From IMG/VR virus record IMGVR_UViG_2663763054_000010: a stretch of DNA of 16,969 bases. One strand, given 5' to 3'. The position numbers and the translations under genes were made by a program. Under the pieces are notes generated by a model. The model was given only the letters and a program-made list of their open reading frames with translations, ran no database searches and was not told the origin of the DNA. The stretch is from a virus (taxonomy: Duplodnaviria; Heunggongvirae; Uroviricota; Caudoviricetes). Below, piece after piece: positions 281-16,969 of the stretch. Numbering within the stretch: position 1 is the first letter of the stretch; each line of letters starts with the position of its first letter.

Positions 281-290
281 GGAGTAACAC

Positions 291-879: not shown

Positions 880-1090
880 AAACGGTTTGCGGGAAAAGGA
901 GAGTTAAGTAGAATTGCAGCGGGTGCTTGAGGCTATCTGTCTCAGGCATGAACACCAAAAGGCAGATAGAGAAAAGCCCCAGTTAACATTACGCGTCCGG
1001 CAAGACGCTTAACATTAATCTGAGGCTCAATCTATGAACGGCAAATCTAGGTTAGCCTCTTACGTGCCGAAAGGCAAGGAGAAGCAGGCT

Positions 1091-1246: not shown

Positions 1247-1316
1247 GAGACCAGGCGGGGGAGAAATCCCTCGCCACCTCTGATGGGTCAGGCATCCTCA
1301 ATGCACCCACACTTAA

Positions 1317-1340
1317 CCCGCTTCGGCGGGTTTTTGTTTT
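1317..1340 (+). terminator. rho-independent terminator after hok (stem CCGC-UUCG-GCGG + T-tract)
   Basis: GC stem with UUCG tetraloop followed by TTTTTGTTTTT. Confidence 0.5.
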
Positions 1341-1466
1341 TATTTTCAACGCGTTTGAAGTTTTAGATGGTGCCGGAATAGAATCAAAAATACTTAAGTA
1401 GCGCGCAGGGAGAAGAGGGATGGACCCCGAACAGGGGAGTGCTATTTATCTGGAAGGATTCTGTTG

Positions 1467-1748
1467 ATGAAAATCGAAGAATTACGTGAAATTTTTAGTG
1501 AAGATGGCCTCTATACTGTGCGCGTTGAGAATGGCGCTATTGTCAGCCACTGCCTTCCAGACTACACAATTCTGATAATTCAGCCGTCTTTGCCAGCAGG
1601 CACGGGCGGCGCTCTCACGCATTTAAATCTGATTGGTACCAGCATCCCCCATGCACTGAAGAACAGGCCGAATGGCTCATTCAGTGTTACCGCAGGCGCG
1701 GATGCGAGGTTAAAAAAGCCCTTAGCCTCGACTACCGTCACTGGATAA
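1467..1748 (+). CDS. small prophage protein (93 aa); by position possibly Rem-like (recollection of Qin order hokD-rem-ydfU, not verified)
   Basis: ORF with ATG at 1467 (track starts at TTG 1464); identical copy at 7722-8003. Confidence 0.5.
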   Translation: MKIEELREIFSEDGLYTVRVENGAIVSHCLPDYTILIIQPSLPAGTGGALTHLNLIGTSIPHALKNRPNGSFSVTAGADARLKKPLASTTVTG

Positions 1749-1823
1749 TCTCCGTCAGGCTCCCTTACTCCGAACGGCCAACGCGTCCGTCCCGCACATT
1801 CCAGCAACGGATCTGGAGGTAAT

Positions 1824-2882: not shown

Positions 2883-3263
2883 ATGACCGAGCGCATAGAA
2901 TTTGTTTTACCTTACCCGCCGACGGTGAACACTTACTGGCGTCGTCGTGGCAGCACATATTTTGTATCAAAAGCCGGGGAGCGTTATCGCCGGGCAGTGG
3001 CGCTTATTGTTCGCCAGCAGCGGCTGAAATTAAGCCTGTCCGGAAGGTTGGCAATAAAAATTATTGCAGAACCACCGGATAAGCGCCGCCGTGACCTGGA
3101 CAATATTCTGAAAGCGCCGCTGGATGCGCTGACGCATGCGGGGTTGCTAATGGACGATGAGCAGTTTGATGAAATCAATATCGTTCGTGCTCAGCCAGTA
3201 TCTGGTGGACGTCTGGGGGTGAAGATTTATCCCATAATGCTTGAAGGGCAGGTCAAAAAATGA
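2883..3263 (+). CDS. rusA: RusA-family Holliday junction resolvase (variant a)
   Basis: ATG immediately after upstream TAA; RusA signature ...PPDKRRRDLDNILKAPLDALTHAGLLMDDEQ... Confidence 0.85.
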   Translation: MTERIEFVLPYPPTVNTYWRRRGSTYFVSKAGERYRRAVALIVRQQRLKLSLSGRLAIKIIAEPPDKRRRDLDNILKAPLDALTHAGLLMDDEQFDEINIVRAQPVSGGRLGVKIYPIMLEGQVKK

Positions 3264-4006
3264 AACTGGAAGATTTACCGAAATACTACTCCCCAAAATC
3301 CCCCGGCCTGACTGATGCATCGGCCTCAACGTCGAAAGATGCGCTGAGTATCACTGATGTGATGGCCGCGCAGGGCATGACACAGAATCGGGCTGAGATG
3401 GGGGTTTCTGCGTTCCTTGGGAAAATGGGCATTAGTATGAATGACAGAGAGCGGGCAACAGAATTGCTGACAGAATATGCACTCAGTCGGTGTGATCGCG
3501 TGGCGGCGTTAAGAAAACTCCCGGCAGAAATAAAACCGGCAGTGATGCGTATTATGGCTTCGTATGCGTTTGAAGATTATGCCCGTAGCGCGGCGAGCAA
3601 AAAACAGTGCCCCTGCTGTCACGGAAAAAAATTTATTGAAAGCGAGGTTTTTACAAACAAGATCCAGTATCCGGATGGTAAGCCGCCGGTATGGGCAAAG
3701 TGTACGAAAGGTGTGTATCCGTCTTACTGGGAAGAATGGAAAAAAGTCAGGGAGGTGGTAAAAGTTGCCTGTCCGGAGTGTGGCGGAAAGGGTGAGGTTT
3801 CCACCGCCTGTAAGGATTGCCGTGGGCGTGGTGTCGCCATTCATCGTGAAGAGTCGGTAAAACGTGGTATGCCTGTTATCAGAGACTGCCAGCGTTGTGG
3901 TGGTCGTGGCTATGAAAGACTACCATCAACGGAGGCATTTAATGCTATATGCGAGGTGACAAACCAGATAACACGCGCGTCATGGGAAAAAACAGTTAAG
4001 AAATTA
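3260..4006 (+). pseudogene. Q-like late antiterminator (variant a), 3' end replaced by IS2 after codon ~249; track ORF 3260-4093 has an IS-derived tail
   Basis: Identical to 9515-10261 then diverges at the IS2 terminus TGGATTTGCCCC (4007). Confidence 0.7.
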
Positions 4007-4017
4007 TGGATTTGCCC

Positions 4018-4923
4018 CTATATTTCCAGACATCTGTTATCACTTAACCCATTACAAGCCCGCTGCCGCAGATATTCCCGTGGCGAGCGATAACCCAGCG
4101 CACTATGCGGATGCCATTCGTTATAATGCTCGAACGCCTCTGCAAGGTTCTTTGCTGCCGTTAACCCGTCTGGTTTGGGCATGATACTGATGTAGTCACG
4201 CTTTATCGTTTTCACGAAGCTCTCTGCTATTCCGTTACTCTCCGGACTCCGCACCGCCGTGTTCTTCGGTTCAAGTCCCAACATCCGGGCGAACTGGCGT
4301 GTTTCATTAGCCCGGTAGCATGAACCATTATCCGTCAGCCACTCCACTGGAGACGACGGAAGATCGTTGCCGAAGCGGCGTTCCACCGCTCCCAGCATGA
4401 CGTCCTGTACTGTTTCACTGTTGAAGCCGCCGGTAGTCACCGCCCAGTGCAGTGCCTCACGATCACAGCAGTCCAGCGCGAACGTGACACGCAGTCTCTC
4501 TCCGTTATCACAGCAGAACTCGAACCCGTCAGAGCACCATCGCTGATTGCTTTCTTTCACGGCCACTCTGCCTGTATGTGCCCGTTTCGATGGCGGTACA
4601 GCAGGTTTTCGCTCAAGCAACAGCGCATTCTGGCGCATGATCCGGTAAACACGTTTGGCATTGATCGCAGGCATACCATCAAGTTCTGCCTGTCTGCGAA
4701 GCAGCGCCCATACCCGACGATAACCATACGTGGGCAGCTCTCCGATAACATGGTGTATACGGAGAAGCACATCCGTATCATCAGTGTGACGACTGCGGCG
4801 GCCATCCATCCAGTCATCGGTTCGTCTGAGAATGACGTGCAACTGCGCACGCGACACCCGGAGACAACGGCTGACTAAGCTTACTCCCCATCCCCGGGCA
4901 ATAAGGGCGCGTGCGCTATCCAC
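4018..4923 (-). CDS. insD: IS2 transposase OrfB (InsD), 301 aa
   Basis: Protein [34 protein letters not shown]... matches recalled IS2 InsD. Confidence 0.9.
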
Positions 4924-5246
4924 TTTTTTGCCCGTCCATATTCAACGGCTTCTTTGAGGAGTTCATTTTCCATCGTTTTCTTGCCGAGCAGGCGCTGGAG
5001 TTCTTTAATCTGCTTCATGGCGGCAGCAAGTTCAGAGGCAGGAACAACCTGTTCTCCGGCGGCGACAGCAGTAAGACTTCCTTCCTGGTATTGCTTACGC
5101 CAGAGAAATAACTGGCTGGCTGCTACACCATGTTGCCGGGCAACGAGGGAGACCGTCATCCCCGGTTCAAAGCTCTGCTGAACAATTGCGATCTTTTCCT
5201 GTGTGGTACGCCGTCTGCGTTTCTCCGGCCCTAAGACATCAATCAT
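4881..5246 (-). CDS. insC: IS2 OrfA (InsC), 121 aa
   Basis: [24 protein letters not shown]... from internal ATG of track ORF 4881-5291. Confidence 0.85.
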
Positions 5247-5472
5247 CTGTACTCCAATGACTAGTCTAAAAACTAGTATTAAGACTATCACTTATTTAAG
5301 TGATACTGGTTGTCTGGAGATTCAGGGGGCCAGTCTACGGACATTTTCTGCCTGTGGACCAGGAAAGTGCACGGGTGCTTTCCACTCCCATGAAGCCCGG
5401 CAATCCGCGCAGATACAGTAATAAACGAACTGACAGCAGTAAGATGGAGCGTTTCTTTTGAACAACCAGACA

Positions 5473-5715
5473 ATGACTTTTACCTCTGAACAATTGCGTA
5501 AACACGCGCAGGAAATGCTGCGTCATGCTGAACAACTCGAAAAAACGGGCATAACAAAAGACGCTATCCGTAAAGATATGGTACCCGCGCTTCGGGAACT
5601 GATGCAGGCGAAGCATCGCGCACAGAAAGCAGTAGATGAGCTGGTGGACTGTGTGGCAGAGCTGGAAACCAGAGTCGGAAAGTTTGAAAAACTGGTGCAG
5701 GAGGTGCTGCGCTGA
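5473..5715 (+). CDS. hypothetical prophage protein (~80 aa, MTFTSEQLRKHAQEM...)
   Basis: ATG at 5473 (track begins at TTG 5458); stop overlaps rusA start; paralog-like N-terminus shared with 455-799. Confidence 0.5.
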   Translation: MTFTSEQLRKHAQEMLRHAEQLEKTGITKDAIRKDMVPALRELMQAKHRAQKAVDELVDCVAELETRVGKFEKLVQEVLR

Positions 5716-6089
5716 TGCGCCATGAGTTTATTTTACCTTATCCGCCGACGGTGAATACTTACTGGCGACGTCGTGACAACACATATTTTGTATCAAAAGC
5801 CGGTGAGCGTTATCGCCGGGATGTGGCGCTTATTGTCCGTCAGCAGCGACTGAAATTAAGCCTGTCCGGAAGACTGGCGATAAAGATTATTGCAGAGCCA
5901 CCGGATAAGCGCCGTCGTGACCTGGACAATATCCTGAAAGCACCACTGGATGCACTGACACATGCGGGAGTGTTAATGGACGATGAGCAGTTTGATGAAA
6001 TCAATATCGTTCGTGCTCAGCCAGTATCTGGTGGACGTCTGGGGGTGAAGATTTACCCCATAATGCATGAAGAGCAGGTCAAAAAATGA
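5715..6089 (+). CDS. rusA: RusA-family Holliday junction resolvase (variant b)
   Basis: 124 aa, same signature as 2883-3263 but divergent N-terminus (MRHEFILPYPP). Confidence 0.85.
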   Translation: MRHEFILPYPPTVNTYWRRRDNTYFVSKAGERYRRDVALIVRQQRLKLSLSGRLAIKIIAEPPDKRRRDLDNILKAPLDALTHAGVLMDDEQFDEINIVRAQPVSGGRLGVKIYPIMHEEQVKK

Positions 6090-6907
6090 AACTGGAAGAT
6101 TTACCGAAATACTACTCCCCAAAATCCCCTTGCCTGACCGATGCATCGGCCTCAACGTCAAAAGATGCGCTGAGTATCACTGATGTGATGGCCGCGCAGG
6201 GCATGACACAGAATCGGGCTGAGATGGGGTTTTCTGCGTTCCTGGGGAAAATGGGCATCAGTATGAATGACAGGGCGCGGGCAACAGAATTACTGGCAGA
6301 TTATGCACTCAGTCGGTGCGATCGTGTGGCGGCGTTGAGAAAACTTCCGGCAGAAATAAAACCGGTAGTGATGCGCATTATGGCTTCGTACGCTTTTGAG
6401 GATTATGCCCGCAGCGCAGCGAGTAAAAAGCAGTGCCCTTGTTGCTATGGGGAAAAATTTATTGAAAGCGTAGTTTTTACAAACAAGGTCCAGTATCCGG
6501 ATGGTAAGCCGCCGGTATGGGCAAAGTGTACGAAAGGTGTGTATCCGTCTTACTGGGAAGAATGGAAAAAAGTCAGGGAGGTGGTAAAAGTTGCCTGTCC
6601 GGAGTGTGGCGGAAAGGGTGAGGTTTCCACCGCCTGTAAGGATTGCCGTGGGCGTGGTGTCGCCATTCATCGTGAAGAGTCGGTAAAACGTGGTATGCCT
6701 GTTATCAGAGACTGCCAGCGTTGTGGTGGTCGTGGCTATGAAAGACTACCATCAACGGAGGCATTTAATGCTATATGCGAGGTGACAAACCAGATAACAC
6801 GCGCGTCATGGGAAAAAACAGTTAAGAAATTTTATGATGCGCTGGTGACCCGGTTTGATATTGAAGAAGCATGGGCTGAGCGGCAGTTAAAAAAGGTAAC
6901 TAGGTAA
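6086..6907 (+). CDS. Q-like late antiterminator (variant b), 273 aa with CxxC zinc-finger repeats
   Basis: ATGA overlap with rusA; CPCC..CPECGGKG..CKDCRGRG..CQRCGGRG motifs; followed by promoter + short terminator (PR'/tR' layout). Confidence 0.65.
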   Translation: MKLEDLPKYYSPKSPCLTDASASTSKDALSITDVMAAQGMTQNRAEMGFSAFLGKMGISMNDRARATELLADYALSRCDRVAALRKLPAEIKPVVMRIMASYAFEDYARSAASKKQCPCCYGEKFIESVVFTNKVQYPDGKPPVWAKCTKGVYPSYWEEWKKVREVVKVACPECGGKGEVSTACKDCRGRGVAIHREESVKRGMPVIRDCQRCGGRGYERLPSTEAFNAICEVTNQITRASWEKTVKKFYDALVTRFDIEEAWAERQLKKVTR

Positions 6908-6912
6908 CAAGG

Positions 6913-6940
6913 TTGATTTTTCCGGAATCTGTGGTAAATT
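6913..6940 (+). promoter_or_regulatory. candidate late promoter PR' (TTGATT-16 nt-TAAATT) just downstream of Q
   Basis: sigma70-like hexamers; position matches lambdoid Q/qut/PR' organisation; copies at 10342-10369 and 14901-14928. Confidence 0.35.
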
Positions 6941-6989
6941 CGTCATAACGATGGGCGTTTTATGCCTGACGTTAGAAGAGTTTCTACAA

Positions 6990-7012
6990 CCCGCCGCCGA
7001 GCGGGTTTTTTA
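6990..7012 (+). terminator. tR'-like rho-independent terminator (CCCGC-loop-GCGGG + T6)
   Basis: GC-rich hairpin plus TTTTTT about 45-60 nt downstream of the candidate PR'. Confidence 0.6.
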
Positions 7013-7131
7013 TGACTGAAATCGCGTCAGTACAGTAAACGCGCTGGTGGCGGTGAATACCTGTCTTTCAGCTTGCTGGCTTTTTCGACAAGAGTTATTG
7101 GTGTGTCACGTTAACCGGAAAAGGAAAAGAC

Positions 7132-7329
7132 ATGCTAAAACAGCAGGATATGACAGAAACCGCCAGAGTGGTGTTTAATGAATTAAGCGTTACCGAACCG
7201 GCGACAGTCGGGGAGATAGCGCAGAATACTTACCTTTCACGCGAACGCTGCCAGTTAATACTGACCCAGCTGGTTATGGCGGGTCTGGCAGACTATCAGT
7301 TCGGTTGTTACAGACGCCTTCCGCAGTGA
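7132..7329 (+). CDS. small protein (65 aa), possibly helix-turn-helix-like (weak guess)
   Basis: AAAGGAAAAG RBS before ATG; stop inside terminator hairpin; identical copy at 10561-10758. Confidence 0.45.
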   Translation: MLKQQDMTETARVVFNELSVTEPATVGEIAQNTYLSRERCQLILTQLVMAGLADYQFGCYRRLPQ

Positions 7330-7340
7330 AGGCTTTTTTA
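7316..7340 (+). terminator. rho-independent terminator (GCCTTC-loop-GAAGGC + T6)
   Basis: Perfect 6-bp stem followed by TTTTTT; copy at 10745-10769. Confidence 0.55.
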
Positions 7341-7479
7341 TTTGTGGTAAATGGGCGGCTGGTGGGTGTTAGGGGCACCCACCAGCCATCTGCTCATGCG
7401 TTGGGTTCACAAGCAAACCTCAGGCCCACTGCTTTGCGCAAAAGCAGAATGAGCCTATCAGAGACAGGCTTAATGATCC

Positions 7480-7585
7480 ATGCTTAATACTGTAAAAATA
7501 TCCAGTTGTGAGTTAATCAACGCCGACTGCCTGGAATTTATCCGGTCGTTACCCGAAAATTCTGTTGACCTGATAGTCACGGACC
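7480..7585 (+). pseudogene. 5' fragment (first 35 codons) of the DPPY DNA methyltransferase, cut at a duplication junction
   Basis: Identical to 10909-11014 then switches at 7586 to sequence identical to 1332 onward. Confidence 0.75.
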
Positions 7586-7721
7586 ATTTTGTTTTTATTT
7601 TCAACGCGTTTGAAGTTTTAGATGGTGCCGGAATAGAATCAAAAATACTTAAGTAGCGCGCAGGGAGAAGAGGGATGGACCCCGAACAGGGGAGTGCTAT
7701 TTATCTGGAAGGATTCTGTTG

Positions 7722-8003
7722 ATGAAAATCGAAGAATTACGTGAAATTTTTAGTGAAGATGGCCTCTATACTGTGCGCGTTGAGAATGGCGCTATTGTCA
7801 GCCACTGCCTTCCAGACTACACAATTCTGATAATTCAGCCGTCTTTGCCAGCAGGCACGGGCGGCGCTCTCACGCATTTAAATCTGATTGGTACCAGCAT
7901 CCCCCATGCACTGAAGAACAGGCCGAATGGCTCATTCAGTGTTACCGCAGGCGCGGATGCGAGGTTAAAAAAGCCCTTAGCCTCGACTACCGTCACTGGA
8001 TAA
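7722..8003 (+). CDS. small prophage protein, copy of 1467-1748
   Basis: Identical protein. Confidence 0.5.
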   Translation: MKIEELREIFSEDGLYTVRVENGAIVSHCLPDYTILIIQPSLPAGTGGALTHLNLIGTSIPHALKNRPNGSFSVTAGADARLKKPLASTTVTG

Positions 8004-8078
8004 TCTCCGTCAGGCTCCCTTACTCCGAACGGCCAACGCGTCCGTCCCGCACATTCCAGCAACGGATCTGGAGGTAAT

Positions 8079-9137
8079 GTGCGGGTATTACTTCGACCTG
8101 TTCTGGTACCGGAACTCGGTCTGGTTATCGTTAAGCCAGGCCGTGAATCAATGTCAGCATTCCATAACGGCAGAATACTGGTGGAGCCGGAACCAAAAAG
8201 CATGCGTAATCTGCCGTCCGGGGTCGTTCCTGCCGCTCGCCAGCCGCTGGTGGAAGACAAAACATTGCTGCCGTTTTTCAGTAACGCACGGGTGATTCGT
8301 GCTGCTGGTGGTGCTGGTGCATTGTCTGACTGGCTGTTGCGCCATATTAAATCCTGCCAGTGGCCACACGGCGATTATCATCACAGCGAAACCGTCATTC
8401 ACCGTTATGGTACCGGCGCAATGGTGTTGTGCTGGCACTGCGACAACCAGCTGCGTGACCAGACATCCGAATCACTCGAGCAACTTGCTCATCAAAACCT
8501 GTCAGCATGGATGATTGACGTCATCGGTCACGCAATAAGCGGTACGCAGGAGCGTGAATTATCTCTGGCTGAATTATCCTGGTGGGCGGTCCGCAATCAG
8601 GTGGCGGACGCGCTACCGGAAGCGGTATTACGTCGTTCGCTGGGGTTGCGTGCGGAAAAAATTCGCTCTGTGTACAGTGAAAGCGACATCATACCGGGAG
8701 AGCAGACAGCCACCAGCATACTGAAGCAGCGCACAAAAAATATTGCGTTACTGCCTCACGTCCACCAGCAACAGAACCCACCACAGGAAAAGACGGTGGT
8801 CAGCATTGCCGTTGATCCGGAGTCACCGGCTCAGTATCTCCAGCGCCAGAAATCACAACGGGAAGAGATGCCTGTATACACGCGCTGGGTAAAAACGCAG
8901 AAATGCATGACGTGTGGCAATCAGGCAGATGATCCGCATCACATCATTGGTCATGGACTGGGAGGGATGGGAACAAAGGCTGATGATTTGTTTGTTATTC
9001 CGTTATGCCGTAAATGCCGTAACGAACTACATGCCGGAGTAAAAGATTTTGAAGAGAAACACGGCAGTCAGCTGTTGTTGCTGATTCGTTTTTTAATGCA
9101 CGCGAGAAATTCGGGTGTTCTGAAGTGGAAAGCATAA
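8079..9137 (+). CDS. YdfU-like protein with HNH-like motif, copy of 1824-2882
   Basis: Identical protein. Confidence 0.65.
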   Translation: MRVLLRPVLVPELGLVIVKPGRESMSAFHNGRILVEPEPKSMRNLPSGVVPAARQPLVEDKTLLPFFSNARVIRAAGGAGALSDWLLRHIKSCQWPHGDYHHSETVIHRYGTGAMVLCWHCDNQLRDQTSESLEQLAHQNLSAWMIDVIGHAISGTQERELSLAELSWWAVRNQVADALPEAVLRRSLGLRAEKIRSVYSESDIIPGEQTATSILKQRTKNIALLPHVHQQQNPPQEKTVVSIAVDPESPAQYLQRQKSQREEMPVYTRWVKTQKCMTCGNQADDPHHIIGHGLGGMGTKADDLFVIPLCRKCRNELHAGVKDFEEKHGSQLLLLIRFLMHARNSGVLKWKA

Positions 9138-9518
9138 ATGACCGAGCGCATAGAATTTGTTTTACCTTACCCGCCGACGGTGAACACTTACTGGCGTCGT
9201 CGTGGCAGCACATATTTTGTATCAAAAGCCGGGGAGCGTTATCGCCGGGCAGTGGCGCTTATTGTTCGCCAGCAGCGGCTGAAATTAAGCCTGTCCGGAA
9301 GGTTGGCAATAAAAATTATTGCAGAACCACCGGATAAGCGCCGCCGTGACCTGGACAATATTCTGAAAGCGCCGCTGGATGCGCTGACGCATGCGGGGTT
9401 GCTAATGGACGATGAGCAGTTTGATGAAATCAATATCGTTCGTGCTCAGCCAGTATCTGGTGGACGTCTGGGGGTGAAGATTTATCCCATAATGCTTGAA
9501 GGGCAGGTCAAAAAATGA
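9138..9518 (+). CDS. rusA: RusA-family resolvase (variant a), second copy
   Basis: Identical to 2883-3263. Confidence 0.85.
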   Translation: MTERIEFVLPYPPTVNTYWRRRGSTYFVSKAGERYRRAVALIVRQQRLKLSLSGRLAIKIIAEPPDKRRRDLDNILKAPLDALTHAGLLMDDEQFDEINIVRAQPVSGGRLGVKIYPIMLEGQVKK

Positions 9519-10336
9519 AACTGGAAGATTTACCGAAATACTACTCCCCAAAATCCCCCGGCCTGACTGATGCATCGGCCTCAACGTCGAAAGATGCGCT
9601 GAGTATCACTGATGTGATGGCCGCGCAGGGCATGACACAGAATCGGGCTGAGATGGGGGTTTCTGCGTTCCTTGGGAAAATGGGCATTAGTATGAATGAC
9701 AGAGAGCGGGCAACAGAATTGCTGACAGAATATGCACTCAGTCGGTGTGATCGCGTGGCGGCGTTAAGAAAACTCCCGGCAGAAATAAAACCGGCAGTGA
9801 TGCGTATTATGGCTTCGTATGCGTTTGAAGATTATGCCCGTAGCGCGGCGAGCAAAAAACAGTGCCCCTGCTGTCACGGAAAAAAATTTATTGAAAGCGA
9901 GGTTTTTACAAACAAGATCCAGTATCCGGATGGTAAGCCGCCGGTATGGGCAAAGTGTACGAAAGGTGTGTATCCGTCTTACTGGGAAGAATGGAAAAAA
10001 GTCAGGGAGGTGGTAAAAGTTGCCTGTCCGGAGTGTGGCGGAAAGGGTGAGGTTTCCACCGCCTGTAAGGATTGCCGTGGGCGTGGTGTCGCCATTCATC
10101 GTGAAGAGTCGGTAAAACGTGGTATGCCTGTTATCAGAGACTGCCAGCGTTGTGGTGGTCGTGGCTATGAAAGACTACCATCAACGGAGGCATTTAATGC
10201 TATATGCGAGGTGACAAACCAGATAACACGCGCGTCATGGGAAAAAACAGTTAAGAAATTTTATGATGCGCTGGTGACCCGGTTTGATATTGAAGAAGCA
10301 TGGGCTGAGCGGCAGTTAAAAAAGGTAACTAGGTAA
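9515..10336 (+). CDS. Q-like late antiterminator (variant a), intact 273 aa
   Basis: Same as 3260-4006 then continues with the native C-terminus ...KKFYDALVTRFDIEEAWAERQLKKVTR. Confidence 0.65.
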   Translation: MKLEDLPKYYSPKSPGLTDASASTSKDALSITDVMAAQGMTQNRAEMGVSAFLGKMGISMNDRERATELLTEYALSRCDRVAALRKLPAEIKPAVMRIMASYAFEDYARSAASKKQCPCCHGKKFIESEVFTNKIQYPDGKPPVWAKCTKGVYPSYWEEWKKVREVVKVACPECGGKGEVSTACKDCRGRGVAIHREESVKRGMPVIRDCQRCGGRGYERLPSTEAFNAICEVTNQITRASWEKTVKKFYDALVTRFDIEEAWAERQLKKVTR

Positions 10337-10418
10337 CAAGGTTGATTTTTCCGGAATCTGTGGTAAATTCGTCATAACGATGGGCGTTTTATGCCTGACG
10401 TTAGAAGAGTTTCTACAA

Positions 10419-10441
10419 CCCGCCGCCGAGCGGGTTTTTTA
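10419..10441 (+). terminator. tR'-like terminator (copy of 6990-7012)
   Basis: Same hairpin + T-tract. Confidence 0.6.
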
Positions 10442-10560
10442 TGACTGAAATCGCGTCAGTACAGTAAACGCGCTGGTGGCGGTGAATACCTGTCTTTCAG
10501 CTTGCTGGCTTTTTCGACAAGAGTTATTGGTGTGTCACGTTAACCGGAAAAGGAAAAGAC

Positions 10561-10758
10561 ATGCTAAAACAGCAGGATATGACAGAAACCGCCAGAGTGG
10601 TGTTTAATGAATTAAGCGTTACCGAACCGGCGACAGTCGGGGAGATAGCGCAGAATACTTACCTTTCACGCGAACGCTGCCAGTTAATACTGACCCAGCT
10701 GGTTATGGCGGGTCTGGCAGACTATCAGTTCGGTTGTTACAGACGCCTTCCGCAGTGA
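10561..10758 (+). CDS. small protein, copy of 7132-7329
   Basis: Identical protein. Confidence 0.45.
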   Translation: MLKQQDMTETARVVFNELSVTEPATVGEIAQNTYLSRERCQLILTQLVMAGLADYQFGCYRRLPQ

Positions 10759-10908
10759 AGGCTTTTTTATTTGTGGTAAATGGGCGGCTGGTGGGTGTTA
10801 GGGGCACCCACCAGCCATCTGCTCATGCGTTGGGTTCACAAGCAAACCTCAGGCCCACTGCTTTGCGCAAAAGCAGAATGAGCCTATCAGAGACAGGCTT
10901 AATGATCC

Positions 10909-11967
10909 ATGCTTAATACTGTAAAAATATCCAGTTGTGAGTTAATCAACGCCGACTGCCTGGAATTTATCCGGTCGTTACCCGAAAATTCTGTTGACCT
11001 GATAGTCACGGACCCGCCGTACTTTAAAGTGAAGCCTGAGGGCTGGGATAACCAGTGGAAGGGCGACGATGATTACCTGAAGTGGCTGGACCAGTGTCTG
11101 GCGCAGTTCTGGCGGGTGCTGAAACCTGCCGGAAGTCTTTACCTGTTCTGTGGTCATCGCCTGGCATCTGATATCGAAATCATGATGCGTGAACGCTTCA
11201 GTGTGCTGAACCATATTATCTGGGCGAAGCCGTCCGGACGCTGGAACGGATGCAACAAGGAAAGCCTGCGGGCGTATTTCCCCGCCACAGAGCGCATTCT
11301 GTTCGCGGAACATTATCAGGGGCCGTATCGTCCGAAAGATGCCGGGTATGCGGCGAAGGGCAGTGCACTGAAACAGCATGTGATGGCCCCGCTGATTTCT
11401 TACTTTCGTGATGCGCGAGCTGCCCTGGGGATAACGGCAAAACAGATTGCAGATGCCACAGGAAAGAAAAACATGGTGTCGCACTGGTTCAGTGCCGGTC
11501 AGTGGCAGTTGCCGAATGAAAGCGATTATCTGAAATTACAGGCGCTGTTTGCCCGGGTGGCAGAAGAGAAGCATCGGCGTGGTGAACTGGAAAAGCTCCA
11601 CCACCAGCTGGTGGATACGTATACCTCACTGAACCGGCAGTATGCGGAGCTGCTGAGTGAATATAAACATCTGCGGCGGTATTTTGGCGTGACGGTGCAG
11701 GTGCCGTATACCGATGTGTGGACGCATAAACCGGTGCAGTTCTATCCCGGGAAACATCCGTGCGAAAAACCGGCAGAAATGCTGCAGCAGATAATCAGCG
11801 CTAGCAGTCGTCCGGGTGACCTGATTGCAGATTTTTTCATGGGGTTGGGTTCGACAGTGAAAGCGGCACTGGCGCTCGGGCGTCGTGCAATTGGCGTTGA
11901 GCTGGAGACTGAACGTTTTGAGCAGACGGTTCGGGAAGTACAGGATTTAGTCAGCCAGAACGGATGA
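10909..11967 (+). CDS. DNA methyltransferase, DPPY (N6-adenine/N4-cytosine) type with beta-class motif order; no cognate endonuclease seen (orphan)
   Basis: Motif IV DLIVTDPPYF near N-terminus, motif I DLIADFFMGLGST near C-terminus. Confidence 0.8.
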   Translation: MLNTVKISSCELINADCLEFIRSLPENSVDLIVTDPPYFKVKPEGWDNQWKGDDDYLKWLDQCLAQFWRVLKPAGSLYLFCGHRLASDIEIMMRERFSVLNHIIWAKPSGRWNGCNKESLRAYFPATERILFAEHYQGPYRPKDAGYAAKGSALKQHVMAPLISYFRDARAALGITAKQIADATGKKNMVSHWFSAGQWQLPNESDYLKLQALFARVAEEKHRRGELEKLHHQLVDTYTSLNRQYAELLSEYKHLRRYFGVTVQVPYTDVWTHKPVQFYPGKHPCEKPAEMLQQIISASSRPGDLIADFFMGLGSTVKAALALGRRAIGVELETERFEQTVREVQDLVSQNG

Positions 11968-12007
11968 TATTGAAGAATTAATTACGCGTCGTTATTATGC
12001 GGCTCCC

Positions 12008-12083
12008 GGCCCTTTAGCTCAGTGGTGAGAGCGAGCGACTCATAATCGCCAGGTCGCTGGTTCAAATCCAGCAAGGGCCACCA
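12008..12083 (+). tRNA. tRNA with CAU anticodon, tRNA-Ile2 (lysidine) type, ileX/ileZ-like
   Basis: Cloverleaf: acceptor GGCCCTT/AAGGGCC, anticodon loop CTCATAA, T-loop TTCAAAT, CCA end. Confidence 0.85.
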
Positions 12084-12090
12084 TCACATA

Positions 12091-12167
12091 CCGCCATTAG
12101 CTCATCAGGAAAGAGCGCCAGCCTTCGAAGCTGGCTGCGCGGGGTTCAAGTCCCCGATGGCGGTCCA
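12091..12167 (+). tRNA. tRNA-Arg, anticodon UCG as read
   Basis: Acceptor CCGCCAT/ATGGCGG, anticodon stem CCAGC/GCTGG with loop CTTCGAA, T-loop TTCAAGT, CCA end. Confidence 0.75.
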
Positions 12168-12180
12168 TTATCTGCATCAT

Positions 12181-12257
12181 GCGTTGTTAGCTCAGCCGGA
12201 CAGAGCAATTGCCTTCTAAGCAATCGGTCACTGGTTCGAATCCAGTACAACGCGCCA
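12181..12257 (+). tRNA. tRNA-Arg, anticodon UCU (reads rare AGA)
   Basis: Acceptor GCGTTGT/ACAACGC, anticodon loop CTTCTAA, T-loop TTCGAAT, CCA end. Confidence 0.85.
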
Positions 12258-12271
12258 CACTTATTTTCCCA

Positions 12272-12300
12272 GGCTCGCTTTTGCGGGCCTTTTTTTTAAA
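12272..12300 (+). terminator. rho-independent terminator after tRNA cluster
   Basis: AGGCTCGC-TTTT-GCGGGCCT stem (one mismatch) followed by T8. Confidence 0.5.
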
Positions 12301-12514
12301 TGTCTCACAATTCAGACGGTTGACAGTTGTCTGTTTTGCGGGGAGTTTGTTAAAAGAAACTGGCATGGTGAATCCCCCTGTGCGGAGGGGCAATCAGCGA
12401 GTAGGTATATGGGATAATCGCGGATTCAGGTGCTGGTACTGAATTCACCGGGAGGCACCCGGCATCATGCAATGGCACATAGCGCCACTCTCCAGCCCTC
12501 TCCGGAGGGGCTTT
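12293..12514 (+). other. conserved ~215-bp structured non-coding element, copy 1; candidate sRNA or leader ending in a hairpin
   Basis: Near-identical to 15947-16170; several GC stems; no ORF conserved between copies. Confidence 0.3.
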
Positions 12515-12744
12515 TCTGTGCCGGATACATCACAGTTTCTGGAACCTTAGGTACTACAGTATCAGTCAGGGTGCTATATTTTCAGATGTGATGAAAGCCT
12601 GTCAGCAGGCAGGGCGTATCGGAAATGACCCAGTAGAGAAAACGTTGACTCAGATACCGGTGCTGAGTTACCGGGAAACCGGCATCACATGACCGCTATC
12701 CTGAGGTGTACTGGCAATAGCGGACACTACCATTTGTTCTTTTT

Positions 12745-13563
12745 TTAAGCAGCCATCTGATGATATTTTTCCCTGAAGGCTGCCGGGGAGATATTCCCCA
12801 GACGAGAGTGACGACGCTGACGATTGTAGAAAATCTCAATGTATTCCCGTATTACTGAGATGGCTTCATCCCGGTTATTAAAACGATAGTGGCTCAGGCT
12901 CTCATTTTTCAGCGTTCCCCAGAAGCTTTCCATCGGAGCGTTGTCGTAACAGTTACCTTTACGCGACATTGATGTTTTCAGACCAGACTGCTCCTGTATG
13001 ACCCGGTAATCGTATGCGCAGTACTGTGAACCTCGATCAGAGTGGTGGATTAGCCCGGCAGGTGGGCGCTGGCTCCTGAGCGCCATAAACAGGGCTTTAC
13101 CTGTCAGCTCTTTTGTCATGCGCTCTCCCATGGCGTAGCCGACAATTTCGCACGTATAAACATCTTTGATGCCAGCGAGGTACAACCATCCCTCCTGTGT
13201 GGCAACATACGTCAGGTCCGCCACCCAGACCTGATTTGGTGCTGTAGGAGCGAACGTCTGGTTCAGCAGATTTGGCGCAACTGGCAGATTGTGGTTCGAG
13301 TTCGTAGTCGCTCTGAACTTGCGTTTCTGCTTACAGCGTAGCCTTAGCTCCTTACGAAGACGTGCCAGTCGGTCACGACCAACGATGATGCCATTCTCTG
13401 CCAGCTCCGTCTGGAGCCGCCGGGTTCCATATGTTTCGCGAGTGCGGATATGTGCCACCTTAATCTCCAGTTTTAGCCGCTCATCACTTTGTTTTCTGTC
13501 TGAGGGTTCATGCTGTACCCAGTTGTAATAACCGCTCCTGGATACACCAAATACCTGACACAT
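12745..13563 (-). CDS. IS3-family transposase OrfB (DDE integrase-like), 272 aa from first in-frame Met
   Basis: Recalled IS3-family OrfB features; normally expressed as an OrfAB frameshift fusion. Confidence 0.85.
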   Translation of the reverse strand: MCQVFGVSRSGYYNWVQHEPSDRKQSDERLKLEIKVAHIRTRETYGTRRLQTELAENGIIVGRDRLARLRKELRLRCKQKRKFRATTNSNHNLPVAPNLLNQTFAPTAPNQVWVADLTYVATQEGWLYLAGIKDVYTCEIVGYAMGERMTKELTGKALFMALRSQRPPAGLIHHSDRGSQYCAYDYRVIQEQSGLKTSMSRKGNCYDNAPMESFWGTLKNESLSHYRFNNRDEAISVIREYIEIFYNRQRRHSRLGNISPAAFREKYHQMAA

Positions 13564-13598
13564 CGCTTCAATGGGAAATTGTTGTCGCCATTGTTCGA

Positions 13599-13842
13599 TT
13601 AACGCGTATTTTTCAGCGACTCCTGTGCAAAATACGCTGTTGCTTTTTTTAATATATCTCGCTCAAGGCGAGCTTCATTTAACGCCTTACGCAGTTGCAG
13701 AATTTCAGATTCCAGTTCAGCCACCGTGCGGGAACCAGGAGTACCGAGCCCTTTTCTGGCGGCGGTAACCCATTGTCCTAAAGTGCCTTCAGGAAGAGAT
13801 AATCGGGAAGCGCCTTCACTGATCGAAAGTTGATTTTCAAAG
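13599..13842 (-). pseudogene. IS3-family OrfA, C-terminal part only (...ENQLSISEGASRLSLPEG...ILKKATAYFAQESLKNTR)
   Basis: Track ORF 13599-14000 is chimeric: 3' part is orfA, 5' part is antisense rusA. Confidence 0.7.
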
Positions 13843-14084
13843 CGACTGAAATTAAGCCTGTCCGGAAGACTGGCGATAAAGATTATTGCAGAGCCACCGG
13901 ATAAGCGCCGTCGTGACCTGGACAATATCCTGAAAGCACCACTGGATGCACTGACACATGCGGGAGTGTTAATGGACGATGAGCAGTTTGATGAAATCAA
14001 TATCGTTCGTGGTCAGCCAGTATCTGGTGGACGTCTGGGGGTGAAGATTTACCCCATAATGCATGAAGAGCAGGTCAAAAAATG
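13843..14084 (+). pseudogene. rusA: rusA (variant b) 3' fragment, lacking about the first 44 codons
   Basis: Matches 5848-6089 with one substitution (RAQPV to RGQPV); upstream replaced by the IS. Confidence 0.8.
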
Positions 14085-14936
14085 AAACTGGAAGATTTAC
14101 CGAAATACTACTCCCCAAAATCCCCTTGCCTGACCGATGCATCGGCCTCAACGTCAAAAGATGCGCTGAGTATCACTGATGTGATGGCCGCGCAGGGCAT
14201 GACACAGAATCGGGCTGAGATGGGGTTTTCTGCGTTCCTGGGGAAAATGGGCATCAGTATGAATGACAGGGCGCGGGCAACAGAATTACTGGCAGATTAT
14301 GCACTCAGTCGGTGCGATCGTGTGGCGGCGTTGAGAAAACTTCCGGCAGAAATAAAACCGGTAGTGATGCGCATTATGGCTTCGTACGCTTTTGAGGATT
14401 ATGCCCGCAGCGCAGCGAGTAAAAAGCAGTGCCCTTGTTGCTATGGGGAAAAATTTATTGAAAGCGTAGTTTTTACAAACAAGGTCCAGTATCCGGATGG
14501 TAAGCCGCCGGTATGGGCAAAGTGTACGAAAGGTGTGTATCCGTCTTACTGGGAAGAATGGAAAAAAGTCAGGGAGGTGGTAAAAGTTGCCTGTCCGGAG
14601 TGTGGCGGAAAGGGTGAGGTTTCCACCGCCTGTAAGGATTGCCGTGGGCGTGGTGTCGCCATTCATCGTGAAGAGTCGGTAAAACGTGGTATGCCTGTTA
14701 TCAGAGACTGCCAGCGTTGTGGTGGTCGTGGCTATGAAAGACTACCATCAACGGAGGCATTTAATGCTATATGCGAGGTGACAAACCAGATAACACGCGC
14801 GTCATGGGAAAAAACAGTTAAGAAATTCTATGATGCGCTGGTGACTCGGTTTGATATTGAAGAAGCATGGGCTGAGCGGCAGTTAAAAAAGGTAACTAGG
14901 TTGATTTTTCCGGAATCTGTGGTAAATTCGTCATAA
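14082..14936 (+). CDS. Q-like late antiterminator (variant b), 284 aa; an 8-bp deletion removes the normal stop and adds an 11-aa tail
   Basis: Same as 6086-6907 apart from a few substitutions; ...AGGTAACTAGGTAACAAGGTTG becomes AGGTAACTAGGTTG; ORF runs through the PR' -35/-10. Confidence 0.6.
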   Translation: MKLEDLPKYYSPKSPCLTDASASTSKDALSITDVMAAQGMTQNRAEMGFSAFLGKMGISMNDRARATELLADYALSRCDRVAALRKLPAEIKPVVMRIMASYAFEDYARSAASKKQCPCCYGEKFIESVVFTNKVQYPDGKPPVWAKCTKGVYPSYWEEWKKVREVVKVACPECGGKGEVSTACKDCRGRGVAIHREESVKRGMPVIRDCQRCGGRGYERLPSTEAFNAICEVTNQITRASWEKTVKKFYDALVTRFDIEEAWAERQLKKVTRLIFPESVVNSS

Positions 14937-14977
14937 CTATGGGCGTTTTATGCCTGACGTTAGAAGAGTTTCTACAA

Positions 14978-15000
14978 CCCGCCGCCGAGCGGGTTTTTTA
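14978..15000 (+). terminator. tR'-like terminator (third copy)
   Basis: CCCGC-loop-GCGGG + T6. Confidence 0.6.
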
Positions 15001-15038
15001 TTGCGGAATTAATTACGGACCGTTATTATTCTGCTCCC

Positions 15039-15114
15039 GGCCCTTTAGCTCAGTGGTGAGAGCGAGCGACTCATAATCGCCAGGTCGCTGGTTCAAATCC
15101 AGCAAGGGCCACCA
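15039..15114 (+). tRNA. tRNA (CAU), Ile2-type, second copy
   Basis: Identical to 12008-12083. Confidence 0.85.
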
Positions 15115-15121
15115 TCACAAA

Positions 15122-15201
15122 CCGCCATTAGCTTATCAGGAAGAGCAGACGACACGATAACAGGGTTGTTGGTGCGGGGGCGGGTCCCCGATGGCGGTCC
15201 A
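15122..15201 (+). pseudogene. degenerate tRNA (tRNA-Arg-like ends, anticodon arm and T-loop disrupted)
   Basis: Acceptor and D-arm as in 12091-12167, but the middle has no anticodon stem and the T-loop is GCGGGT. Confidence 0.55.
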
Positions 15202-15214
15202 TTATCGGTATTCA

Positions 15215-15291
15215 GCGTTGTTAGCTCAGCCGGACAGAGCAATTGCCTTCTAAGCAATCGGTCACTGGTTCGAATCCAGTACAGCGCGCCA
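15215..15291 (+). tRNA. tRNA-Arg (UCU), second copy, with one acceptor-stem change giving a U-G pair
   Basis: Same as 12181-12257 except ACAGCGC for ACAACGC. Confidence 0.8.
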
Positions 15292-15401
15292 TATTCATTC
15301 TTCCAGATTCCTTCCGGCAGAGCCTTATACTGAAATATACCTGGCTCAGGATATTGTTGAAAATATTTTATGTTTGTCAAAAATAAAAGTTCTGTTAAGT
15401 A

Positions 15402-15755
15402 TTGATTGAGTGTTTGTTATACGGTCTAATGGTTTTTTCAGCATTAAATATTTATCATTCATATGGTGTGGGTAGAGTGAATATTGATGAGGCGTCGGGG
15501 TGTTTCATCCTTAGGCAGCGTATTGATATAGTCAATGCAGCACGAGCAAAGGCCTTCAGCCGTTTGACAGTTTTGTTCTGTACTCCTGATCGTCTTTCGG
15601 GAAGAGACGTTATTATTCTGAATAGTGATGCTATACAGAGGGTTTGCGATGAGTTCATGGTTGCTAATTCAGAATTATTTGCTCTTGTTCAGGAGTACAA
15701 CAGAATAGCCAGGACCTGTGGTATGGATGAACTTCGGATTACTCATCTGGGGTAG
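15402..15755 (+). CDS. hypothetical protein in AT-rich cargo region; start codon uncertain (track start is TTG)
   Basis: 117-aa ORF; no recognisable motif. Confidence 0.3.
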   Translation: MIECLLYGLMVFSALNIYHSYGVGRVNIDEASGCFILRQRIDIVNAARAKAFSRLTVLFCTPDRLSGRDVIILNSDAIQRVCDEFMVANSELFALVQEYNRIARTCGMDELRITHLG

Positions 15756-15946
15756 ATACATATCTGGATTATCACCTGTTACGGTAAAAAGTGATTGCTT
15801 ACTGTTTTTGTGAATGGCATTGCAGCAGCCGGATAATGTCAGTGCTGGCTGACGGTGTGCTGGTGGCGGGTGTGGTGGTTGTTGCTTTCCCGTTGCTGAA
15901 AAAGAAAACGCCAGACTGTTAGCCGGGTATCAGTTAGCGGGAGAAA

Positions 15947-16170
15947 TTTTTAAATACTTCACAATTCAGGCGGTTGACTGTTGTCTGGTTTGCGGGGAGT
16001 TTGTTAAAAGAAACTGGCATGGTGAATCCCCCTGTGCGGAGGGGCAATCAGCGAGTAGGTATATGGGATAATCGCGGATTCAGGTGCTGGTACTGAATTC
16101 ACCGGGAGGCACCCGGCACCATGCAATGGCACATAGCGCCACTCTCCAGCCCCTCTCCGGAGGGGCTGTT
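15947..16170 (+). other. conserved structured non-coding element, copy 2
   Basis: Aligns to 12293-12514 with scattered substitutions; ends in perfect hairpin AGCCCCTC-TCCG-GAGGGGCT. Confidence 0.3.
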
Positions 16171-16202
16171 TATATTGATTTTGTCAGATGTGAGTAAACT
16201 CC

Positions 16203-16538
16203 TTATGGACTTTGTTGTTTTAGTCCATAAGGACATATTTGCAGAGTGCAACGGTTATTAAAGCATTCATTCAATACGTTATCTGTATTTGTAGGGCATT
16301 CCTGGCTATTTTTGATTGAATTCCAGAATGTTTTATTGAATGGTACTACGTTGTAAATGGTTACAGGTAGCACTTTGTTATTGAGCATGATGCCTGTGTG
16401 AGTCAGTGTAAATATACTTTCAGGAGGTAAGAAAGCATCCGATTGATACCAGATTATTAATTTTATTTTACTCCATATGACTGAAAAAGATATTCCGCAT
16501 GATGGCTGGATAACTGTATCAATCACAATCCACTTCAT
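16203..16538 (-). CDS. hypothetical protein (111 aa) in AT-rich region
   Basis: ORF only; 3' end coincides with a perfect inverted repeat (about 16202-16232). Confidence 0.25.
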
Positions 16539-16797
16539 TTAGTTTCCTTGTTTATGCCTTGCTGGTGATGTTCTGAAAAGTATAAATGATATTTTTGAAT
16601 GTAAACCATAGAGCAGAATTATTTTTCTGATGTTGTTTATTGTTTATTTAAATGCAGGGTGGTTTATATCTCGTCTTGTAGTTTATCCATGCATATCTGC
16701 TTGATAATCAGGTTTTTATTTAAGGTATGGTTTTGTGTTTTTTCTGTATTACATGTCAGGTATTTTAAAGAATTATTTTTCAGATGGTGGAAAGAAC

Positions 16798-16925
16798 CAT
16801 GGCATTTAAACACTATGATGTTGTCAGGGCGGCGCCGCCGTCAGATCTTGCGGAAAAGCTGACACATAAACTGAAAGAGGGCTGGCAGCCGTTTGGTAGT
16901 CCGGTGGCCATAACCCCTTATACCC
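16798..16925 (+). pseudogene. 5' part of a small prophage gene (MAFKHYDVVRAAPPSDLAEKLTHKLKEGWQPFGSP...), interrupted by the IS end
   Basis: GGTGGAAAG RBS before ATG 16798; frame runs into the IS terminus at 16926; motif resembles recalled DUF1737-type proteins (uncertain). Confidence 0.4.
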
Positions 16926-16969
16926 TGAGGTGTACTGGCAATAGCGGACACTACCATTTGTTCTTTTTT
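16926..16969 (-). mobile_element. IS3-family (IS600-like) element, right end only, cut by window end
   Basis: TGAGGTGTACTGGCAATAGCGGACACTACCATTTGTTCTTTTTT identical to 12692-12735. Confidence 0.75.

What the first reader, a model, noticed from the sequence alone, without database searches (positions are those of the whole stretch)
15300..16925. AT-rich cargo region at the stx-equivalent position with unassigned ORFs
Between the second tRNA cluster and the IS end, the sequence is visibly more AT-rich than the phage genes around it. It carries a 117-aa ORF (15402-15755), a 111-aa minus-strand ORF (16203-16538) and the start of a small gene (16798-) cut by the IS. This is where Stx phages keep their toxin moron, so these ORFs are candidates for new cargo. 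I recognise neither product, and the ORFs may not be real genes.
Basis: inference. Interest (0 to 1): 0.55.

Follow-up and report, generated by a model that had tools for sequence, protein, structure and literature searches.

The report
Known iraL prophage cargo, one unannotated gene
The AT-rich stretch is the accessory-gene slot of a decayed lambda-like prophage and carries mostly known cargo: the stress-response regulator gene iraL, a known small RNA and a known small membrane-protein gene. It also holds one real 92-codon gene of unknown function that standard annotation misses.

Summary
Window 15300-16925 lies between prophage tRNAs and an IS600 end, is AT-rich in blocks, and sits where phage 933W carries stx2AB.

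The cargo is not new. Bases 14997-16928 are 98.1% identical to the potB prophage of uropathogenic E. coli CFT073.

- **iraL:** the 111-aa minus-strand ORF (16203-16538) is iraL, the characterised RssB anti-adaptor that stabilises RpoS. It is 110/111 identical to CFT073 IraL, and the published transcription start and promoter are conserved.
- **Missed features:** It also missed an STnc100/EcOnc27-family small RNA (15988-16177).
- **Third ORF:** it starts at 16799. It is the DUF1737 5' end of the nanS-p-type gene, cut by IS600 at 16926.
- **The 117-aa ORF:** it is a real gene, but the conserved coding sequence is 92 codons from a GTG at 15477. Three lineages keep the same length, with dN/dS of about 0.26. 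It belongs to PHROG 2873 (unknown function) and is predicted to be a helical hairpin. RefSeq leaves its position unannotated in every close copy inspected.

Verdict: already known and ordinary, with one minor annotation gap. Interest is low.

The parts
14082..14936 (+). Antiterminator Q gene (284 aa). Context only: it defines the late operon upstream of the cargo.
   Evidence: Pfam PF03589 Antiterm, 183.6 bits. 98.4% identical to the CFT073 potB-prophage Q region.
14976..15003 (+). Terminator-like hairpin plus T-run just 3' of Q. Candidate tR' of the late promoter; this is inferred.
   Evidence: Consensus scan. 933W carries annotated pR'/qut/terminator features at the equivalent place.
15039..15114 (+). 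Prophage tRNA with CAT anticodon (ileZ-type; RefSeq annotates it as tRNA-Ile in CFT073 and 042).
   Evidence: ARAGORN; Rfam tRNA 72.5 bits; annotation in L001 and L016.
15215..15291 (+). Prophage tRNA-Arg(TCT), argO-type.
   Evidence: ARAGORN; Rfam 68 bits.
15477..15755 (+). orf92: a real 92-codon gene with a GTG start, family phrog_2873, function unknown.
   Evidence: Three lineages at 67-72% nucleotide identity across the CDS keep 92 codons with no indels and the same stop. dN/dS is 0.26 at dS of about 1, with differences by codon position of 19/19/40. The upstream extension carries stops and indels in homologues. phrog_2873 scores 194.8 bits. The AlphaFold2 model has pLDDT 85.7 and is a helical hairpin.
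15791..15922 (+). DUF3927 small hydrophobic protein gene (43 aa; PHROG label 'TciB-like').
   Evidence: Pfam PF13064, 95.6 bits against a cutoff of 25. phrog_1470. RefSeq WP_000562553.1 sits at the same place in E. coli 042 and CFT073.
15988..16177 (+). STnc100 (RF02076) / EcOnc27-family small RNA with its own intrinsic terminator at 16147-16177.
   Evidence: cmscan 132.4 bits against a gathering score of 47, full-length model. Terminator scan. 71% identical to the region 3' of stx2B in 933W.
16203..16538 (-). iraL, an RssB anti-adaptor (111 aa).
   Evidence: 110/111 identical to CFT073 IraL. NCBIfam NF007393, 162 bits against a cutoff of 121. PDB 8twd IraM, E = 6e-31. 61% identical to K-12 IraM.
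16539..16605 (-). iraL 33-nt 5' UTR with the transcription start at 16571. Sigma-70-like promoter elements: TATACT at 16579-16584 and TTTACA at 16600-16605.
   Evidence: The published 5'-RACE sequence matches at 31 of 32 bases. The 75 bases upstream of the TSS match CFT073 except position -1, so both candidate hexamers are identical. Assignment of the hexamers is my own reading of the sequence.
16799..16925 (+). 5' part (42 codons) of a DUF1737 gene, homologous to the N-terminus of nanS-p in Stx phages. It is truncated by IS600.
   Evidence: Pfam PF08410, 57.2 bits. 84% identical to the nanS-p 5' end in 933W. Divergence from E. coli 042 begins at 16929.
16926..16969 (+). Terminal inverted repeat end of IS600.
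   Evidence: 44-nt perfect inverted repeat with window 38-81 and a direct repeat with 12702-12745. The full copy at 12702 onward is annotated as IS600 in E. coli genomes.

Best explanation
The interval is the accessory-gene ('moron') insertion site of a defective, IS600-disrupted lambdoid prophage, downstream of antiterminator Q and the phage tRNAs. It is nearly the same DNA as in the potB prophage of uropathogenic E. coli CFT073. It holds four elements.

(1) A co-directional gene pair sits exactly in the slot where Stx phages carry stxAB. The pair is orf92, a 92-aa soluble helical-hairpin protein of unknown function, and a 43-aa DUF3927 hydrophobic protein. I infer that the pair is transcribed with the Q-dependent late operon, and possibly also from a promoter in the AT-rich spacer.

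(2) An STnc100/EcOnc27-family small RNA follows, with its own terminator. Relatives of this RNA in EHEC bind Hfq.

(3) A very AT-rich cassette (32.5% GC) reads on the opposite strand and carries iraL with its own sigma-70 promoter. In CFT073 and Shigella sonnei, IraL binds the ClpXP adaptor RssB and so protects RpoS from degradation during logarithmic growth. That function was shown elsewhere and is inferred here from 110/111 identity and an intact promoter.

(4) The 5' end of the DUF1737/nanS-p-type gene is cut by IS600, which also removes the lysis genes from this copy.
For: Identity and frequency: bases 14997-16928 are 98.1% identical to CFT073. At least 80% of the region is present in 863 of 5,426 complete E. 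coli genomes.

iraL: 110/111 identity and an identical promoter. The published transcription start matches at 31/32 bases with a 33-nt UTR. NF007393 scores above its cutoff. IraM structure 8twd matches at E = 6e-31. Function is described in PMC4045071.

Small RNA: 132 bits. Its position 3' of the moron coding sequence agrees with PMC4104026, PMC7873438 and PMC12370729.

Slot mapping against 933W and against an 'empty' copy in the same window.

orf92 coding evidence. A 39-44% identical relative in Citrobacter braakii lies between Q and the holin gene, and is again followed by a DUF3927 gene.

DUF3927 and DUF1737. IS600.
Against: Nothing here shows expression in this genome. The prophage is decayed: it has several IS600 copies and four Q modules. 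Late-operon transcription may therefore no longer occur.

The window's IraL carries S74 where CFT073 has L74, and the effect is unknown. Two bases also differ near the start (position -1 and position +31).

The functions of orf92 and DUF3927 are unknown. Fold searches returned only generic helical hairpins. No promoter for orf92 or STnc100 could be assigned with confidence.
Confidence: 0.9

Rival explanations
1. One reading: the ORFs are new, unrecognised cargo, such as a toxin-like lysogenic-conversion factor, at the stx position.
For: The position is truly equivalent to stx. orf92 has no Pfam, NCBIfam or PADLOC match.
Against: The minus-strand ORF is the characterised iraL. orf92 is already a PHROG family. 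It is a 92-aa helical hairpin, and neither its sequence nor its predicted fold matched any protein of known function. The DNA is common in E. coli.
Confidence: 0.05
2. The plus-strand ORF is not a gene. It would be a chance open frame over regulatory or spacer DNA, which would explain why RefSeq never annotates it.
For: RefSeq lists no feature under the match in all 36 hits of 98% identity or more shown, nor in 042 or CFT073. The start is a GTG with a weak ribosome-binding site in this lineage.
Against: Three lineages at dS of about 1 keep exactly 92 codons, the same stop and no indels, with dN/dS of 0.26 and an excess of third-position changes. RefSeq does annotate the ETEC6333 orthologue WP_001017777.1 with the same GTG start. 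Relatives at 33-44% identity exist with the same length. The AlphaFold2 model is confident.
Confidence: 0.05
3. The gene is longer than 92 codons. It would start at ATG 15429 (108 aa) or TTG 15402 (117 aa), adding a hydrophobic N-terminal segment that could anchor the protein in the membrane.
For: Gene callers in other sources produce 108- to 118-aa products. The phrog_2873 profile is 108 positions long. A related variant, P0022, has a similar extension.
Against: In L004, L005 and L013 the in-frame upstream stretch contains stop codons and indels that are not multiples of three. Conservation begins at the GTG. Distant relatives are 91-95 aa.
Confidence: 0.12

Closest known systems
iraL locus of the E. 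coli CFT073 potB prophage (Hryckowian et al. 2014, PMC4045071)
   Same: The DNA is 98.1% identical from the tRNAs to the DUF1737 gene, with the same gene order. IraL is 110/111 identical. The candidate -35/-10 hexamers are identical, and so is the mapped transcription start.
   Different: The window copy has IraL S74 in place of L74 and two base changes around the transcription start. It lacks the middle tRNA-Arg, and IS600 cuts the DUF1737 gene and removes the lysis genes. CFT073 instead has an IS200C between Q and the tRNAs.
IraM of E. coli K-12 (anti-adaptor; structure 8twd)
   Same: Same protein family: 61% identity over 107 residues. It matches NF007393 above the cutoff.
   Different: The genomic context differs, since K-12 iraM lies next to prophage e14. 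According to PMC4045071, regulation also differs (low Mg2+ for IraM, logarithmic growth for IraL), and so does the mode of RssB interaction.
stx2AB moron site of Stx2 phage 933W / Sp5, with EcOnc27 (STnc100) 3' of stx2B
   Same: The order is the same: Q, tRNAs, cargo coding sequences, STnc100-family small RNA, DUF1737/nanS-p, then lysis genes.
   Different: The cargo is orf92 plus DUF3927 instead of stx2AB. An extra iraL cassette lies between the small RNA and DUF1737. No AsxR or AgvB anti-sRNA partner was detected by Rfam.
PHROG 2873 (phage protein family of unknown function)
   Same: orf92 matches over its whole length at 194.8 bits.
   Different: The PHROG profile carries 16 extra N-terminal positions that the comparison of lineages does not support as coding.

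Membership tests
IraM/IraL RssB anti-adaptor family | Sequence match to the curated family model above its cutoff | tested here: met
   NCBIfam NF007393: 162 bits against a cutoff of 121, residues 1-110. PDB 8twd IraM: E = 6.3e-31.
IraM/IraL RssB anti-adaptor family | Belongs to the IraL branch rather than the IraM branch (at least 95% identity to CFT073 iraL; about 59% amino-acid identity to IraM) | tested here: met
   110/111 identical to CFT073 IraL. 65/107 identical to K-12 IraM. The published criteria are in PMC4045071.
IraM/IraL RssB anti-adaptor family | The sigma-70 promoter and transcription start mapped by 5' RACE are present | tested here: met
   31/32 match to the published mRNA 5' end, with a 33-nt UTR. 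The 75 bases upstream of the TSS match CFT073 except position -1.
IraM/IraL RssB anti-adaptor family | Binds RssB and stabilises RpoS | not testable with these tools
   Shown for CFT073 and S. sonnei IraL in PMC4045071. It is inferred here by near-identity, and the S74 variant is untested.
STnc100 small RNA (Rfam RF02076) / EcOnc27 | Covariance-model score above the gathering threshold over the full model | tested here: met
   132.4 bits against 47, model positions 1-206. A second copy at 12334-12523 scores 123.6 bits.
STnc100 small RNA (Rfam RF02076) / EcOnc27 | Lies between the moron coding sequence and the conserved downstream phage ORF in the late region, and ends in an intrinsic terminator | tested here: met
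   Map against 933W. Terminator at 16147-16177. Literature context.
STnc100 small RNA (Rfam RF02076) / EcOnc27 | Expressed as a discrete Hfq-binding RNA | not testable with these tools
   Reported for EcOnc27/sRNA103 in EHEC (PMC7873438). It is not tested for this copy.
DUF3927 (PF13064) | Pfam match above the gathering score | tested here: met
   95.6 bits against 25.
DUF1737 (PF08410) / NanS-p N-terminus | Pfam match, and a full-length gene | tested here: inconclusive
   The domain matches at 57.2 bits. However, only 42 codons remain before IS600, so no esterase domain can be present.
Stx-phage toxin moron (stxAB) | Encodes Shiga toxin A and B subunits at the site between the tRNAs and STnc100 | tested here: not met
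   The site is equivalent, but it holds orf92 and DUF3927. Pfam gives no toxin-family match above threshold.
PHROG 2873 | Profile match over the whole protein | tested here: met
   E = 5.6e-58, 194.8 bits, residues 1-92.

The most novel reading that the evidence does not exclude
orf92 (phrog_2873) and the DUF3927 small membrane protein form a conserved two-gene late-region module that occupies the exact stx slot. The module would be systematically missing from RefSeq annotation of more than a thousand E. coli genomes, and it would have a real function. That function could be modulating lysis timing at the membrane just upstream of the holin gene, or altering host physiology in lysogens. Linkage of the two genes is seen in E. 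coli and, at 39-44% protein identity, in a Citrobacter braakii prophage.
Probability: 0.25. Interest if true: 0.4.

Novelty: already known. Interest (0 to 1): 0.15.

Why it matters
This finding mainly serves as a clean negative, because the 'mystery cargo' at the stx-equivalent site is the published iraL locus plus a known small-RNA family. Two small points may be useful.

First, iraL, described as lying on a 'potB genomic island', sits in the classical moron site of a lambdoid prophage, next to an STnc100/EcOnc27 small RNA. That places an RpoS-stabilising factor in the same slot that carries Shiga toxin in other phages.

Second, a 92-codon gene under purifying selection lies in this slot. RefSeq leaves its position unannotated in every close copy inspected, and at least 80% of the 499-bp query around it is present in 1,183 of 5,426 complete E. 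coli genomes. That is an annotation gap rather than a discovery.

Tried and rejected
- **Function of orf92 by sequence:** Pfam, NCBIfam and PADLOC gave nothing. Only phrog_2873, of unknown function, matched.
- **Function of orf92 by structure:** the AlphaFold2 model is confident. Foldseek against the PDB and BFVD gave only generic helical hairpins, all at E of 0.35 or worse.
- **orf92 as a relative of IraP:** I tested the small coiled-coil anti-adaptor IraP. hhalign gave probability 0.1%, so this was rejected.
- **Exhaustive HMMER search:** 1.84 billion cluster representatives yielded only 19 relatives, none annotated.
- **One-genome-per-species scan:** it found only E. coli, one contig labelled as a Bacillota MAG, and Citrobacter braakii.
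- **Anti-sRNA partner:** I looked for the convergent AsxR/AgvB partner described for EHEC moron sites. Rfam gave no hit at E of 0.1 or better.
- **Literature:** searches for DUF3927 and TciB gave nothing usable. No supplementary files are held for the IraL paper.
- **Promoters:** consensus scanning found no more promoter-like sites than in shuffled sequence (6 found, 5.7 expected). I therefore assign no promoter to orf92 or STnc100.

Full report
**1. What is in the interval**

The window is a lambdoid-prophage late-regulatory region broken up by insertion sequences. It contains four antiterminator Q genes, repeated DUF968-RusA-Q modules and several IS3-family elements. The finding lies between a tRNA pair (CAT anticodon at 15039-15114; Arg-TCT at 15215-15291) and the terminal repeat of an IS600 copy that starts at 16926.

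The interval has 40.6% GC against 49.4% for the window, but the AT-richness sits in blocks:

| Block | GC |
|---|---|
| Spacer 15292-15476 | 31.4% |
| iraL | 34.5% |
| iraL-DUF1737 intergenic region | 29.6% |
| DUF3927 gene | 50.8% |
| STnc100 small RNA | 55.3% |

The two long ORFs are at the stated coordinates. The third ORF starts at 16799, one base later than reported.

**2. This DNA is common and already annotated elsewhere**

At least 80% of the 1,678-bp region queried (15292-16969) is present in 863 of 5,426 complete E. coli genomes. The best hits are 99.4-99.6% identical. RefSeq labels the features under the match as 'anti-adapter protein IraM', 'DUF3927 family protein' and 'DUF1737 domain-containing protein'.

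Bases 14997-16928 are 98.1% identical to the prophage inserted beside potC/potD in uropathogenic E. coli CFT073. That element is a complete lambdoid prophage running from integrase to tail fibres.

**3. The minus-strand 111-aa ORF is iraL**

- It matches the curated IraM model NF007393 at 162 bits against a cutoff of 121.
- It matches the crystallised IraM fragment 8twd at E = 6e-31.
- It is 61% identical to K-12 IraM, which agrees with the 58.9% published for IraL against IraM.
- It differs from the CFT073 protein at one residue only, L74S.

Hryckowian et al. (PMC4045071) mapped the iraL mRNA 5' end by RACE. Their 32-nt sequence matches the minus strand at 31 of 32 bases. This places the transcription start at window 16571, with a 33-nt leader. 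The 75 bases upstream of the TSS match CFT073 except position -1, so both candidate hexamers (TTTACA and TATACT) are unchanged.

The same paper showed that IraL binds RssB and lengthens RpoS half-life in logarithmic phase in CFT073. It also showed that IraL affects RpoS levels in Shigella sonnei. The structural basis for the related IraM is in PMC10844676. Function in this window is therefore inferred from near-identity and was not tested.

**4.

A 43-aa ORF at 15791-15922 is a DUF3927 protein. It scores 95.6 bits in Pfam, carries the PHROG label 'TciB-like' and is RefSeq WP_000562553.1 in 042 and CFT073.

Bases 15988-16177 match the Rfam family STnc100 over the whole model, at 132 bits against a gathering score of 47. 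The match ends in an intrinsic terminator at 16147-16177.

In Stx2 phages an STnc100 copy lies 75 nt downstream of the stx2 operon (PMC12370729). It partly overlaps the Hfq-binding small RNA EcOnc27/sRNA103 (PMC12711010; PMC7873438). Tree et al. describe such small RNAs as a regular feature of the moron site downstream of PR' (PMC4104026). A 2026 preprint relates STnc100 to PasD.

RefSeq places a short 'hypothetical protein' pseudogene over this RNA on the opposite strand. That call is probably spurious.

**5. The position really is the stx position**

Alignment with phage 933W gives the following map:

| Window | Counterpart in 933W |
|---|---|
| 14999-15299 | tRNA cluster (87% identical) |
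| 15300-15958 | no homology; 933W has its stx terminator, stx2A and stx2B here |
| 15959-16125 | region 3' of stx2B (71% identical) |
| 16171-16797 | no counterpart |
| 16798-16906 | start of the nanS-p esterase gene (84% identical) |

The window also holds an internal control. A second copy of the tRNAs runs almost directly into a second STnc100 at 12334-12523, leaving an 'empty' slot. There are therefore two separate insertions: orf92 plus DUF3927 in the stx slot, and the very AT-rich iraL cassette between the small RNA and DUF1737.

**6. The 117-aa ORF is a real gene, but shorter**

RefSeq annotates nothing here in any close copy inspected. Diverged copies at 71-76% BLAST identity do exist. 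One of them, in ETEC6333, is annotated as a 92-aa protein that starts at the GTG corresponding to window 15477.

The window, ETEC6333 and isolate 07-4299 all have exactly 92 codons, no indels and the same stop. Differences by codon position are 19/19/40, 24/23/44 and 24/18/40. dN/dS is 0.26-0.27 at dS of 0.9-1.1.

Upstream of the GTG, the in-frame sequence carries stop codons and 2-nt and 7-nt indels in the other lineages. The extension to TTG 15402 or ATG 15429 is therefore not conserved as coding.

The protein matches phrog_2873, of unknown function, at 194.8 bits. It has no Pfam, NCBIfam or PADLOC match. An exhaustive search of 1.84 billion cluster representatives found only 19 relatives.

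In a one-genome-per-species collection it appears in E. coli, in Citrobacter braakii and on one contig labelled as a Bacillota MAG. The Citrobacter relative is 39-44% identical. It lies between Q and the holin gene and is followed by a TerB-like gene and again by a DUF3927 gene.

AlphaFold2 predicts a confident helical hairpin (pLDDT 85.7). The helices span residues 3-35 and 50-81, and a short beta tip carries the conserved TPDR motif. Fold searches returned only generic hairpins. A test against IraP was negative.

I cannot assign a function. My best guess is a late-operon accessory protein that acts together with the DUF3927 membrane peptide, and this guess is weakly supported.

**7. The third ORF**

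Bases 16799-16925 encode the first 42 residues of a DUF1737 protein. The sequence diverges from E. coli 042 at 16929, where IS600 begins within a shared TGA. No complete E. coli genome in the collection covers this junction. Together with the IS600 load, this suggests a Shigella source, although I did not test that.

**8. Verdict**

The cargo, however, is the published iraL locus with a known small-RNA family and a known DUF.

The only new point is that a conserved 92-codon gene in the stx slot is absent from RefSeq annotation. It is already catalogued in PHROGs. Novelty is 'already known', and interest is low.

Noticed in passing
window 12258-12523: A second tRNA cluster (Met-CAT, Arg-TCG, Arg-TCT at 12008-12257) runs almost directly into a second STnc100 copy at 12334-12523 (123.6 bits). 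This is an 'empty' version of the stx/moron slot inside the same window.
   Followed up: partly
window 15115-15214: The middle tRNA-Arg(TCG) of the usual ileZ-argN-argO trio is not called in this copy. E. coli 042 also shows two tRNAs here, whereas CFT073 has three. The spacer looks like a degenerate remnant.
   Followed up: no
window 16007-16132 (-) equivalent; L001 6716-6841 and L016 23270-23395: RefSeq annotates a partial 'hypothetical protein' pseudogene on the minus strand directly over the STnc100 small RNA. It is probably a spurious coding call.
   Followed up: partly
window 1-16969: The window holds four antiterminator Q genes (3260-4093, 6086-6907, 9515-10336, 14082-14936) and repeated DUF968-RusA-Q modules at 90-100% identity. 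This packing of prophage late-regulatory modules is unusual and is presumably produced by IS-mediated rearrangement.
   Followed up: partly
window 12702-13840: This IS600 copy matches E. coli IS600 only over about 1,139 bp. It then abuts sequence 100% identical to the RusA/Q junction at 5845-6144, so it looks truncated by recombination. A further IS600 end lies at window 1-81 on the minus strand.
   Followed up: partly
window 4018-5291 (-): A different IS3-family element (orfA with HTH_Tnp_1, orfB with rve) interrupts the 3' end of the first Q gene. I did not identify the element.
   Followed up: no
window 921-1096 (+) and 1255-1336 (+): A sok antitoxin RNA (112 bits) marks a hok/sok module. 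Nearby is a sub-threshold isrK-like match (25.7 bits against a gathering score of 50).
   Followed up: no
window 15400-15476; L005 about 2490-2570: DNA similarity to the diverged orf92 lineages begins about 75 nt upstream of the GTG start and includes a shared ATTGATTGA motif. It could be a conserved promoter or leader for orf92.
   Followed up: no
L016 (CFT073 NC_004431.1 1328014-1371058): The 'potB genomic island' that carries iraL is annotated as a full lambdoid prophage (integrase, Q, lysis, head and tail genes). An IS200C lies between Q and the tRNAs.
   Followed up: partly
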